From the NCBI RefSeq assembly GCF_003334815.1, contig NZ_QOWO01000014.1: a stretch of DNA of 64,000 nucleotides; one strand, written 5' to 3'. The stretch comes from Escherichia coli. GTDB taxonomy: Bacteria; Pseudomonadota; Gammaproteobacteria; Enterobacterales; Enterobacteriaceae. Position numbers: made by a program. Below, piece after piece: positions 60,601-63,600 of this stretch (position 1 is the stretch's first letter; every line of letters starts with the position of its first letter).

Positions 60601-63600
60601 TAAACGGCAATAGTGTAAATAATGATAGTATAGCTATCAGCGAAATGCTATTTGACATTATTATGCCCTGATAACCAAGAATGAATCTCTACGCCCAATT
60701 TATCATCCACTTCAACAAGTTCGCCATAGCCAGTTAGCGCGCCATTTACACGTATTTCTATATTTTTCTCAGATTCAGAAAGCAGAGATATTATTCTTTT
60801 TGCACAGAGTTCGTCTATTTCATATAGATTCATTATTTTCTTACCAAGAACAAACTCAATTTTTACAGGCAAGTCTTCAAAACTATTAATCATCTGATCG
60901 TCATTTTCATCATAAATCTCACTCTCGTTTTTTTTGATATCAAAATCATCTGTTTCAAAATCTTCCTCGTACTCAAAATGATCAGCCATTTTTAACTCCT
61001 CTGGATAAATTAAATCACAAATTTTTGTATTATAAATAACCGCATAAGCCAAATTATTTGAGATTAATAAAACATCACCAACTTCAATATCAACAAGACT
61101 TCTGTAACATGTTTTACTAAATCCAATTACAAAATGAATGGAGCAATATAACGATTTTTTGTCTAACGCTGGAGCGTTTCCGTATTGGCAGACTGTGACT
61201 TTATCTAACCAAAGATTCAATTCCCCTGTCCATATTCTTATTAGTGGTTGAGCAGGGCTCAATACTCCATCAAATACTTTACCTACGCGCAAACGATTAT
61301 ATTTTAGTTCAGGATGCTTTAGATTTAACGGGGAACTGGATAAACTGAGGCATTCCCCTATTAACCTTTCCGTTTCTGGCATTAAAGCCATCCCAGCGAG
61401 CTCAGATGAAATTAAGGGAAATATTTCTCCAAGCAATACCCATCCAGACCAGCTGCCACTCTCTTCTGCTATCGGTAGCCATTTAGCACTAAATTCGGGC
61501 ATTAATAATGCAACATCTTCGCCATTTTCTTTCCAATTTTGAAAAGTGGTTTCAAACGTATGAGTGTTTCGATTTACTTTCCTCAGACCGAACATTAACT
61601 TTCATCCTTCTGATCGTTTTCGAATTTGCTTTCATTTTCTTGCTCCTCATAAGGCTGATGTCGTTGTCCTTGTCGTTCATCTTGCTCAGTCAATACCCAA
61701 CGTTGTGCTGTAACTCATTATGAAAACTATTTAATTCCCTCATCATTGATAAGGTTGGACATCTCTTTCAACATGAGAGTCATTGAAGCTTTCGACCAAT
61801 TTAGCGGAATGATAGGGCTTGGCGCTTCATGCAAAGTTCCCGACTTGTGGATATAGTTATAGCTTTCGGGAAGTGCCATTTCTGGTACGCTCCTGCCATT
61901 TGCACCAATCATATTCTCGCCTGTTATTTGGGCCAATGATCTATTCATAAATTGTACTGAGTCATTCAAATACTCTTCTTTTCTTGATTCTTTATAAACA
62001 ATTGCTGCTGATTTTGCATACCATGAGTCAAAAAACCATTCTGCTTCTGTTGATGGAATGAAGCTCTTTTCTCTTTTTGCATGCGAATTTTGATCGGTAT
62101 CGGTTTTAATATCATTGAACCAAAAATTTGCCGACTGATAATTATCCTTCTCGTATCTTTTTATACCATACGGACCTGCTAGTTTTTTAACTATTTTTAG
62201 AACTTGCTCTTTTCTTCTGGTGTTTATCTTTGAAAGATTTGTAGGATAAATAACATTAAGTAAAGCCGCATCGGCTTCTCTGTAATGTTTATCTTTTTCC
62301 AGATAACCTGGGGATTCTCCCCCTAAATCAAGCTGTAACGTTATTCTTTCATAACCTTTATCTATGAGGTGGTTCAACCTCGTTGTTGAAAGAGTTTCAT
62401 CCAGTTCATTGACTTTAGCTTCGCGTAGTAAATCAGAGACAAAAACAGAGTCTTTCTTCGAGAGTAGGTTTGACAAACGTTCCAGTCCAGAGGTCACCAG
62501 TGCAACGGAAGATGTGTTTAATCGGGCATCTTCTTCCCATGCTCAGGAATCTTCCATAACATAGAAATTGGCTTTATCCAGATAAGCAATCAGCAGCGCA
62601 ACCGACTTTAATCGGTCACCTTTTTGCCAATCTTCAGCGTTAATAGTACCAGTGTTGATTGCTTGTATAAGGAGATCAAGGTAAAGACCTAAAGCATCAT
62701 TTTGTTTATGGTTCCACAGCTGCGGCTTGCCTTCTTCCTGCACATCTGCCATCACGGGGGAGTTGCTGTCAAATCGGATATGCACAGCATTCATTTGCAC
62801 GGGAATTCCATCCAGTCGTTTTGGGTTGCTAATGACGTCCTGCATCCGCTTAATCTGGTCGGGCGTAGACATATAATCCCACAGGGTGAGCAGAACCTTT
62901 TTTGCGGCTACACTATTTCCCTGATCTGATACTAATGCCATATAGCCCCATAAACTATCCCTCAACCAGACAGCATCATAGTGGGTTTCTGCCGCTGTTT
63001 TGTCATCTTCGAAAGTAGAAGCAAGAATAAACGTTCCCCAGGGTTTCTCCGTCAACGTTAACTTTCGTGTGTTTTCTGTTAATGTTAGCAATCCTTGAAT
63101 TTCGTCTTTGGTATAGTGGCTCTTTATTTCATTTTGTAATTTGGCTGAGTGAATCAGAAGACGATAATTAGGATACTTATCTGGATTTAACGATAAATAA
63201 CTTTTATCTGTTGCTGCCCCCGTGGAATTAAGAATGTTAAATACAGATTCACTCGTCACTTCTGCCCCTGTCGCCTGGCATGTGCCGCACGAAAATATAC
63301 CAGCGAGCAGAAGAGTTAATGCAGATTTCCCTTTCATAAAATATTCCATCAATCGTTTGTTAAAAGCGTAGATAACCACTTATTTAACAACTTGAAAATA
63401 AGGTGTTTTACCTGGGTTGTTACAAAAGGATTGCATTGCGTAAACGCTTTTTATTTACAACAAAATGGGGAAGTATTACGGCGAAGATAAATTGGAGCGG
63501 GCGAAGGGAATCGAAGTATCGAAGACAATCACTCACTAACCAATTGTTTCTTAAAGGATGATGAATCCTTTTGGTTACAGTTATGGTTACACATTAATTT

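What the first reader, a model, noticed from the sequence alone, without database searches (positions are those of the whole stretch)
63493..63515. Orphan 23-nt tRNA-Gly 3' fragment marks an integration junction; a different element appears to begin to its right
The sequence is the reverse complement of the last 23 nt of a tRNA-Gly (TTCGATTCCCTTCGCCCGCTCCA), but what follows cannot form the rest of the tRNA. Duplicated tRNA 3' ends of this kind are the usual footprint of integrase-mediated island insertion at a tRNA gene. The orientation implies the intact tRNA and the integrase-proximal end of the inserted element lie to the right of the window, so 63516-64000 would be the distal end of a separate acquired element.
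Basis: partly seen in the sequence, partly recalled or inferred. Interest (0 to 1): 0.55.

Follow-up and report, generated by a model that had tools for sequence, protein, structure and literature searches.

The report
Remnant end of a tRNA-inserted island
A 23-base copy of the end of a glycine tRNA gene marks where a small mobile island inserted beside an E. coli secretion-system cluster; the copy here is gutted and cut by an insertion sequence, which is ordinary, but intact relatives carry phage T7-type promoters, often with a known anti-T7 defence gene.

Summary
Window 63493-63515 (- strand) is an exact, unique copy of the last 23 nt of tRNA-Gly(CCC) (glyU), and no tRNA body follows it.

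- Near-identical E. coli strains (BR1220, KFu023) have ygeQ running straight into an intact glyU. Their identity to the window stops exactly at 63515, so they show the empty site.
- Strains such as 30COLEC have the same junction, a 4.3-kb island, a tyrosine integrase, the same 23 nt again and then intact glyU.

In the window:
- 63516-63613 is a complete integrase-distal att arm.
- About 1.7 kb holding both cargo genes is deleted, leaving 22 unmatched nt.
- 63636-63842 is the island's AT-rich repeat module.
- 63843-64000 is an IS10-family end.
- Integrase and glyU, if still present, lie off-window.

The family has an unexpected feature. In 20 of 22 related loci from 13 genera, 1-4 T7-group phage RNA polymerase promoters sit just downstream of the integrase and point at the variable cargo. 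Types include exact T7, KP32/K11 and Kayfunavirus promoters. Many variants also carry the known defence gene RAZR (PD-T7-4) there. I found no description of these promoters. None is in the window.

The parts
62543..63379 (-). ygeQ remnant: the last gene on the ETT2 (type III secretion 2) side, i.e. the chromosomal flank of the junction. With ORF 61727-62497 it is the split form of a single 1611-nt GH15-family gene that is intact in other strains.
   Evidence: ORF list. Annotation of 99.5-99.8% identical loci as 'protein YgeQ', or as one 'glycoside hydrolase family 15 protein'.
63380..63492 (.). Flank between ygeQ and the att core. It is identical to the sequence that lies just 3' of intact glyU in empty-site strains.
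   Evidence: 100% identity of window 63000-63515 to L002 9688-10203. Junction display.
63493..63515 (-). att core: orphan copy of the 3'-terminal 23 nt of tRNA-Gly(CCC), glyU. It is the integrase-distal junction of the island.
   Evidence: The direct repeat of the same 23 nt flanks the island in L004 (4203-4225 and 8499-8521), L005 and L007.
63516..63613 (-). Integrase-distal att arm of the island. It contains the pair TGTAACC-N5-TGTAAC (revcomp at 63573-63592) and the motifs GGATTCA / CTTTAAGAA. These recur, the latter two inverted, in the integrase-proximal arm of intact relatives, so they are putative integrase or accessory-protein binding sites (inference).
   Evidence: 97.6-98.6% identical to L004, L007 and L001, and 74-84% identical to divergent variants L006 and L008-L010. 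Motif comparison of both arms in 14 loci. The arm is present in only 173 of 5426 genomes.
63614..63635 (.). A 22-nt filler at an internal deletion junction. It replaces about 1.7 kb (L004 4324-6000) that holds both cargo genes (157 aa of unknown function and 187 aa with a KilA-N domain) in the closest intact relatives.
   Evidence: No match in any related locus. No match of the junction in JGI metagenomes. No complete E. coli genome is contiguous across it.
63636..63842 (-). Non-coding spacer module of the island with AT-rich (22% GC) ~48-49-bp tandem repeats (63742-63839). In intact relatives it lies downstream of the phage-type promoter(s) and upstream of the cargo genes.
   Evidence: 94.7% identical to L004 6001-6208, and 72% identical to the divergent variant L006 12558-12699. 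Repeats. Composition. No similarity to any deposited phage.
63843..64000 (-). End of an IS10/ISVsa5-family insertion sequence. It has the terminal inverted repeat CTGAGAGATCCCCTCAT and encodes the C-terminal 47 aa of the transposase on the - strand. It is inserted into the island spacer and runs off the window. The putative 9-bp target is AGTTAAGCC at 63834-63842.
   Evidence: 152 of 158 nt identical to the annotated ISVsa5 copy of strain KFu023; the translation matches the transposase C-terminus. The multicopy hits, including on plasmids, fit an IS. The target-site reading is inference from the known IS10 consensus NGCTNAGCN (my own knowledge).

Best explanation
The 23-nt fragment is the integrase-distal attachment junction of a small integrative island. 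A tyrosine integrase inserted this island into the 3' end of glyU, tRNA-Gly(CCC), between that gene and the ygeQ end of the degenerate ETT2 cluster.

Recombination between the island's own copy of the tRNA 3' end (attP) and the gene (attB) regenerates an intact tRNA next to the integrase. It leaves a duplicated 23-nt core at the far end, and that far-end copy is what the window shows.

The window's copy of the island has decayed. The distal att arm is complete. The roughly 1.7 kb with both cargo genes has been deleted. An IS10-family element has inserted into the remaining AT-rich spacer. The integrase, any phage-type promoters and the intact glyU would lie beyond the window end (inferred, not seen).

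Family level, inferred from relatives:
- The islands are built as tRNA-Gly(CCC) | integrase | often RAZR (PD-T7-4), an anti-T7 HEPN RNase gene that overlaps the integrase stop | 1-4 T7-group phage RNA polymerase promoters | non-coding spacer | variable cargo | distal arm and core.
- The cargo is therefore most likely transcribed only when a T7-like phage brings in its own RNA polymerase.
- That would serve phage defence, or alternatively a minimalist satellite life cycle.
For: Shown directly:
- Exact, unique 23-mer with no tRNA body.
- Empty-site genomes break from the window exactly at 63515. One of them, BR1220, is 100% identical to window 1-25000.
- Occupied genomes have the same junction, a 542-aa tyrosine recombinase (PHROG 1 integrase, E 2.8e-42), a second copy of the 23 nt and the intact tRNA.
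- The core plus this arm is present in only 173 of 5426 complete E. coli genomes, and integrase-related DNA at glyU in 385.
- The arm is conserved across variants with different cargo and shares motif pairs with the proximal arm.
- The same integrase sits next to tRNA-Gly(CCC) in 10 loci of other Enterobacterales genera.
- Deletion and IS10 insertion.

Family features:
- RAZR/PD-T7-4 match, E 8e-99.
- The motif N10-CACTATAGG-N4 occurs 43 times in 34.3 kb of the zone 'integrase stop to +1600, same strand', against once in 719 kb elsewhere. It is present in 20 of 22 loci.
- The variants match real phage promoter sets: the exact T7 consensus (the consensus itself is from my own knowledge), KP32/K11-type and Kayfunavirus GA2A/ST31-type.
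Against: - The second core copy, the integrase and the intact glyU of this genome are not in the window.
- No genome in the collections reproduces the window's exact arrangement. The unseen part may be intact, truncated or lost.
- The 22-nt filler at 63614-63635 is unexplained.
- The binding-site reading of the arm motifs is inference.
- No promoter of the phage type is present in the window. The family-level mechanism rests entirely on relatives and on sequence consensus, not on transcription data.
- One related locus (Pectobacterium, L118) has no such motif.
- Cargo proteins have no recognisable function.
Confidence: 0.9

Rival explanations
1. The fragment is the att scar of ETT2 itself, left when the type III secretion island integrated at glyU, and not of a separate element to its right.
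For: The literature describes ETT2 as the glyU-associated island (PMC2808357; PMC4313913). The fragment sits at the ETT2/ygeQ end.
Against: Strains with the same ETT2 end have ygeQ directly followed by intact glyU and no extra fragment. The fragment occurs only together with the 98-nt island arm, in 173 of 5426 genomes. No second copy of the core exists at the other side of ETT2 within the 64-kb window, even with 3 mismatches.
Confidence: 0.03
2. glyU itself was truncated here by a deletion or an IS10-mediated rearrangement. No site-specific integration was involved and no intact copy exists.
For: An IS10-family element lies 328 nt away and an internal deletion is present.
Against: The breakpoint at 63515/63516 is shared base for base with 173 genomes that have no IS10 there, and with intact islands flanked by the 23-nt direct repeat. 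The sequence right of the break is a conserved att arm found across variants with different cargo.
Confidence: 0.03
3. Solo remnant. The junction is a true att site, but in this genome everything beyond the IS10 (promoters, integrase, perhaps glyU) has been deleted or moved by IS10 activity, so no integrase-proximal end lies to the right.
For: The visible part is already decayed (cargo deleted, IS inserted). Partially deleted islands are common in the collection, for example matches covering only 7-57% of the island.
Against: A match running into the core of the glyU locus is found in 5205 of 5426 genomes. Most decayed islands still keep integrase sequence and the tRNA. Nothing in the window argues for loss.
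Confidence: 0.25
4. The 23-mer is a chance resemblance to a tRNA end.
For: None beyond its short length.
Against: Zero matches in 100 shuffles, even with 3 mismatches allowed. The exact positional correspondence with att junctions in many genomes.
Confidence: 0.005

Closest known systems
tRNA-targeting genomic islands and satellite prophages with tyrosine integrases (the classic attL/attR duplication of a tRNA 3' end; 'GI-glyU' hotspot in E. coli, bioRxiv 10.1101/860726)
   Same: Insertion at the 3' end of a tRNA gene. The integrase lies next to the regenerated tRNA. A 23-nt direct repeat (17 nt in divergent variants) sits at the far end. The element is polymorphic between strains and the empty site is known.
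   Different: Very small (4.3-8 kb). The intact relatives closest to the window (L004-type) have only three annotated genes, none a recognisable excisionase. The window's copy is a cargo-less, IS-interrupted remnant.
RAZR / PD-T7-4 defence gene and its integrase association (Vassallo et al. 2022, PMC9519451; Nature 2026, PMC13017515)
   Same: Many island variants at this site carry a full-length PD-T7-4 homologue (E 8e-99) overlapping the integrase stop, as published. The defence is directed at T7-like phages.
   Different: The variant closest to the window (L004-type) lacks RAZR. The papers, as far as I could search them, do not mention the phage-type promoter arrays or the downstream cargo. 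The window itself contains neither.
PICMI, phage-inducible chromosomal minimalist islands of Vibrionaceae (PMC10803314)
   Same: About 6-kb islands with an integrase and an 'integrase-overlapping gene'. They have few genes, depend on virulent phages and carry a defence gene.
   Different: PICMIs integrate next to fis, not in a tRNA. They encode AlpA and a primase, which were not found here. No phage RNA polymerase promoters are reported for them. Excision, replication and packaging of the glyU islands are untested.
Phage T7 primary origin and class III promoters (established T7 biology, from my own knowledge)
   Same: Exact 23-nt T7 class III consensus, two copies in tandem in L004, followed by an AT-rich non-coding region. 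This resembles phi1.1A/phi1.1B plus the AT-rich origin segment.
   Different: Apart from the 23-mers there is no sequence similarity to any deposited phage. Origin function is pure speculation.
IS10 / ISVsa5 (IS4 family)
   Same: Terminal inverted repeat and transposase C-terminus; 96% identity to an annotated copy.
   Different: Only 158 nt are visible. The other end and the target duplication are off-window.

Membership tests
tRNA-integrating tyrosine-integrase island (att junction) | Direct repeat of the tRNA 3' end at both ends of the element | tested here: inconclusive
   Met in relatives L004, L005 and L007 (two exact copies). In the window only the distal copy is visible; the other would lie off-window.
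tRNA-integrating tyrosine-integrase island (att junction) | Empty site in related genomes whose sequence breaks exactly at the core | tested here: met
   L002 and L122: 100% identity to the window up to 63515, then the tRNA body.
tRNA-integrating tyrosine-integrase island (att junction) | Tyrosine recombinase gene adjacent to the intact tRNA | not testable with these tools
   Present in all relatives (PHROG 1 integrase, E 2.8e-42). The corresponding part of this genome is outside the window, and no database genome has the same arrangement.
tRNA-integrating tyrosine-integrase island (att junction) | Conserved att arm with repeated protein-binding-type motifs next to the core | tested here: met
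   Window 63516-63613 is 74-98% identical to the distal arms of six variants. It shares the TGTAACC-N5-TGTAAC pair and inverted CTTTAAGAA / GGATTCA motifs with proximal arms. Actual binding is not tested.
RAZR / PD-T7-4 defence island | DUF4145/HEPN zinc-finger gene overlapping the integrase gene | tested here: not met
   Absent from the window. Also absent by tblastn from the closest intact variants L004, L005 and L001. Present in L006-L009 and in 9 loci of other genera. The window's element is a relative of RAZR-bearing islands, not a RAZR locus.
Islands with T7-group phage RNA polymerase promoter arrays (proposed here) | One or more N10-CACTATAGG-N4 23-mers within 1.6 kb downstream of the integrase, same strand | tested here: not met
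   No T7-consensus match in the window with up to 3 mismatches. The looser motif scan found one site, at 50846, inside the ETT2 region and unrelated. The IS10 cuts the island before the position where relatives carry the promoters. 20 of 22 relatives have them.
PICMI satellites | Integration next to fis; core genes int, alpA and primase | tested here: not met
   Integration is at tRNA-Gly(CCC). PHROGs, NCBIfam and Pfam scans of the cargo gave KilA-N, Rha and Ant-like regulators and unknowns, with no AlpA or primase.
IS10 / ISVsa5 | Terminal inverted repeat plus IS4-family transposase | tested here: met
   CTGAGAGATCCCCTCAT at 63843. 152 of 158 nt match the annotated ISVsa5. The 47-aa transposase C-terminus is on the - strand.
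ETT2 island boundary | T3SS genes ending in ygeQ directly next to glyU | tested here: met
   Window 58-63.4 kb matches sctT, EscS, EscR, YscQ and ygeQ annotations. In this genome the glyU island remnant is interposed.

The most novel reading that the evidence does not exclude
The remnant belongs to an apparently undescribed class of 4-8-kb mini-islands in Enterobacterales that integrate at tRNA-Gly(CCC) and use arrays of T7-group phage RNA polymerase promoters as an infection-triggered switch. Promoter types include exact T7, KP32/K11-type, Kayfunavirus-type and T3-like. Different islands carry different sets, and some carry several specificities in tandem. The incoming phage's own polymerase would transcribe the otherwise silent variable cargo and the AT-rich spacer that survives in the window. 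The outcome would be either cargo-mediated defence, alongside RAZR where present, or replication and mobilisation of a minimalist satellite of virulent T7-like phages.
Probability: 0.45. Interest if true: 0.8.

Novelty: new member of a known kind. Interest (0 to 1): 0.45.

Why it matters
For the window itself, the result gives a clean annotation. The right-hand 508 bases (63493-64000) are three layers of mobile DNA: an att core with its arm, a gutted island spacer and an IS10-family element. They abut the ETT2 cluster, and they explain why glyU is not where K-12-type genomes have it.

The wider value is the lead it opens. The island family sits at a known integration hotspot and is partly known as the carrier of the anti-T7 RNase RAZR. 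It carries native promoters for the RNA polymerases of several T7-like phage genera. If these are functional, it would be a simple and previously unremarked way for chromosomal elements to sense infection, by borrowing the phage's own transcription machinery. It would also be directly testable with standard phages (T7, K1F-like, KP32) and available strains such as K. pneumoniae ATCC 13883.

Tried and rejected
- Extending the window. No complete E. coli genome (5426 searched) is contiguous across 63516-64000. An exact-match scan of JGI metagenome contigs for the deletion junction found nothing.
- Hidden or degenerate tRNA at the site. ARAGORN and Rfam (E<=1) found none.
- Terminator or sigma-70 signals in 63300-64000. 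Nothing above the shuffle expectation.
- Phage origin of the island or of the surviving spacer. blastn 'distant' against 50,697 phage records gave no match for the whole L004 island or for window 63516-63842. The promoters are therefore not part of a captured phage fragment.
- Vector contamination as the source of the T7 promoter. Rejected because the motif recurs in the same island position in independent genomes of 13 genera, with non-T7 specificities.
- Function of the cargo proteins. PHROGs, PADLOC, NCBIfam and Pfam gave only KilA-N, Rha and Ant-like DNA-binding hits, a weak PD-T4-2_B hit (E 1e-4), and nothing for the 157-, 375- and 328-aa proteins.
- Rfam families in the intact islands. 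Only the tRNA and an IS3 frameshift pseudoknot were found.
- Literature. Eight full-text searches found no description of phage-type promoters in these islands. The library is incomplete, so prior description cannot be excluded.
- ETT2's own att scar, truncation of glyU, and chance. Rejected as listed under the rival explanations.
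Full report
**Observation**

The sequence TGGAGCGGGCGAAGGGAATCGAA is at window 63493-63515. Its reverse complement is the only match in the 64-kb window even with three mismatches, and none of 100 dinucleotide-preserving shuffles gave a match. In related loci the same 23 nt are the 3'-terminal 23 nt (CCA included) of a 74-nt tRNA-Gly with anticodon CCC. This gene is glyU in K-12 nomenclature (my own knowledge). ARAGORN finds no tRNA here. Rfam at E<=1 finds no tRNA-like match in 60000-64000. 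The fragment is real, exact and orphan.

**Context**

Window 1-25000 is 100% identical to E. coli strains such as BR1220 and K-12 derivatives (recBCD, ptrA, argA). The 58-63.4-kb part matches the degenerate ETT2 type III secretion cluster ending in ygeQ. The literature calls ETT2 the glyU-associated island (PMC2808357, PMC4313913).

**Empty and occupied sites**

- Empty sites: in KFu023 (L002) and BR1220 (L122), ygeQ is followed directly by intact glyU, actS and xdhA. The window is 100% identical to them up to base 63515, after which they continue into the tRNA body and the window does not.
- Occupied site: strain 30COLEC (L004) has the same flank, the 23 nt, and the same next 98 nt as the window. 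Two small genes follow, then a non-coding region, then a 542-aa tyrosine recombinase (PHROG 1 integrase, E 2.8e-42; partial Xer-type NCBIfam hits), then the 23 nt again, now continuous with the intact tRNA.

This is the textbook attB / attL / attR triad. The island in 30COLEC is 4,319 bp from core to core.

**Frequency**

Only 173 of 5426 complete E. coli genomes have the core together with this arm. 385 have DNA related to the island or its integrase at glyU.

**What is left in the window**

- 63516-63613 is the distal att arm. It is 97.6-98.6% identical to L004, L001 and L007, and 74-84% identical to divergent variants.
- Read in tRNA orientation, the arm carries TGTAACC-N5-TGTAAC and GGATTCA...CTTTAAGAA. 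The integrase-proximal arm of 14 loci carries TTCTTAAAG...TGAATCC and the same TGTAAC pair. In the circular form these motifs would flank the core symmetrically, as expected of an attP. I infer binding sites; this is not shown.
- At 63614-63635, 22 nt have no counterpart anywhere. They replace the ~1.7 kb that holds both cargo genes in L004.
- 63636-63842 is 94.7% identical to L004 6001-6208. It is a non-coding spacer with 22% GC and ~48-49-bp tandem repeats.
- At 63843 an IS10/ISVsa5-family element begins with the terminal repeat CTGAGAGATCCCCTCAT. It is 152/158 identical to an annotated copy and encodes the transposase C-terminus on the - strand. AGTTAAGCC just before it fits the IS10 target consensus (inference).

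No genome or metagenome contig available reproduces this arrangement. Whether the integrase and glyU survive to the right cannot be decided here.

**The island family**

Variants at the same site share the integrase (77-92% aa identity) and the att arms but differ in cargo. In many variants a ~210-aa DUF4145 gene overlaps the integrase stop. It matches PD-T7-4 full-length at E 8e-99. [quoted passage not shown] The protein is now characterised as RAZR, a HEPN RNase activated by T7/T3 portal proteins (PMC13017515). The variant closest to the window lacks it.

**Unexpected feature: phage-type promoters**

Reading L004, I noticed two exact T7 promoter cores on the gene strand just downstream of the integrase. 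I then checked how general this is.

- L006 (E. coli SLDY13) has four sites: two KP32/K11-type, one exact T7 and one AATTAGGTAG-type. L008-L010 have Kayfunavirus-type and other variants.
- ACTAAACTATCACTATAGGG recurs on one strand of ~39-40-kb viral contigs identified as Kayfunavirus phages GA2A and ST31.
- AATTAGGGCACACTATAGGGAGA recurs in ~41-kb contigs, including Klebsiella phage KP32.
- A scan of species-representative genomes with the integrase alignment returned 16 loci: Klebsiella, Citrobacter, Buttiauxella, Shimwellia, Enterobacter, Kluyvera, Proteus, Pectobacterium, Edaphovirga, Rouxiella, Lonsdalea, Serratia and an unnamed Enterobacteriaceae isolate. In 10 of them tRNA-Gly(CCC) lies just upstream of the integrase.
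- Over 22 loci, N10-CACTATAGG-N4 occurs 43 times in the 34.3 kb of 'integrase stop to +1600, same strand' and once in the other 719 kb. 20 of 22 loci have at least one. The exceptions are a contig that ends too early (L106) and Pectobacterium (L118).
- The common layout is integrase, then a RAZR-like ORF, then a first promoter set at about +640-740, then a ~500-nt non-coding spacer, then a second promoter set at about +1190-1270, then cargo on the same strand.
- Apart from the 23-mers, the island has no similarity to deposited phages.
- K. pneumoniae ATCC 13883 and E. coli SLDY13 share a 100% identical RAZR and the same four promoters, which indicates recent transfer between genera.

**Mechanism**

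Shown: site-specific insertion at glyU, its polymorphism, the decay in the window, and the conserved presence and orientation of phage-type promoters in relatives.

Inferred: the promoters are used by infecting Autographiviridae RNA polymerases to switch on the cargo. Two readings are open.
1. Defence cargo expressed only on infection, complementing RAZR.
2. A minimalist satellite. In this reading the promoter pair plus AT-rich spacer acts like the T7 primary origin (my own knowledge of T7 biology). This would be comparable to PICMIs, which also have an integrase-overlapping gene (PMC10803314).

Cargo proteins gave only KilA-N, Rha and Ant-like hits or nothing, so I cannot choose between the two. 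Eight literature searches found no description of these promoters. The library is incomplete.

**Verdict**

The feature in the window is an ordinary att junction of a decayed member of a known kind of element, so its intrinsic interest is modest. The overall score is raised because following it exposed a conserved and apparently unreported promoter architecture in its intact relatives. That architecture is not present in the window itself.

Noticed in passing
L004 6474-6496 and 6592-6614 (-); L006 12487-13064 (-); L107 7038-7614 (+); others: Intact relatives of the island carry 1-4 T7-group phage RNA polymerase promoter 23-mers (exact T7, KP32/K11-type, Kayfunavirus-type, T3-like) just downstream of the integrase/RAZR module, pointing at the cargo. 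The counts are 43 hits in 34.3 kb of that zone against 1 in 719 kb elsewhere. None is in the window.
   Followed up: yes
L006 13073-13705 (-); L007 4953-5594 (-); L008/L009 9332-9991 (-): The DUF4145 gene overlapping the integrase stop is a full-length PD-T7-4 / RAZR homologue (E 8e-99), a published anti-T7 defence RNase. The island variant closest to the window lacks it.
   Followed up: yes
window 63843-64000: An IS10/ISVsa5-family end is inserted into the island spacer, with putative target AGTTAAGCC at 63834-63842. It runs off the window, so the other end and the target duplication are unseen.
   Followed up: yes
window 61727-62497 and 62543-63379 (-): ygeQ and the upstream 'hypothetical' ORF are two pieces of what is a single 1611-nt glycoside hydrolase family 15 gene in strains 30COLEC, 81EVA and PE15. 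Here it is a split pseudogene.
   Followed up: partly
between window 63484 and 63491; L004 4113-4200: Some strains (L004, L005 and many hits with two pieces spanning ~154 bp) carry an extra ~78-88 bp just outside the att core, on the ygeQ side, that the window and K-12-type strains lack. Its nature was not determined.
   Followed up: no
window 5244-5320 (+): A single initiator-type tRNA-Met gene. K-12-derived genomes match window 1-25000 in two pieces spanning 110 bp more, which is consistent with one more tandem tRNA copy there.
   Followed up: no
L005 12329-17001; L010 11802-21717: In strains 81EVA and PE15 a second tyrosine recombinase and prophage genes (baseplate, major capsid) follow the int-proximal 23-nt core copy of the mini-island (L005 12222-12244; L010 11695-11717), where other strains have the tRNA body. 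This points to tandem occupancy of the same att site.
   Followed up: partly
L107 (K. pneumoniae ATCC 13883) versus L006 (E. coli SLDY13): 100% identical RAZR protein and the same four promoter 23-mers at the same offsets in two genera, which points to recent intergeneric transfer of this island variant.
   Followed up: partly
L006 9054-9076; L009 3466-3488; L008 1328-1350; L010 3966-3988: In divergent island variants the distal core copy matches the tRNA only over the last 17 nt (TCCCTTCGCCCGCTCCA). This suggests that the strand-exchange region lies within these 17 nt.
   Followed up: partly
L122 (BR1220) 11270-13256: In BR1220, actS is followed directly by a truncated uacT. The xdhABC-ygeV... 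block that other strains have next to glyU appears to be deleted there.
   Followed up: no
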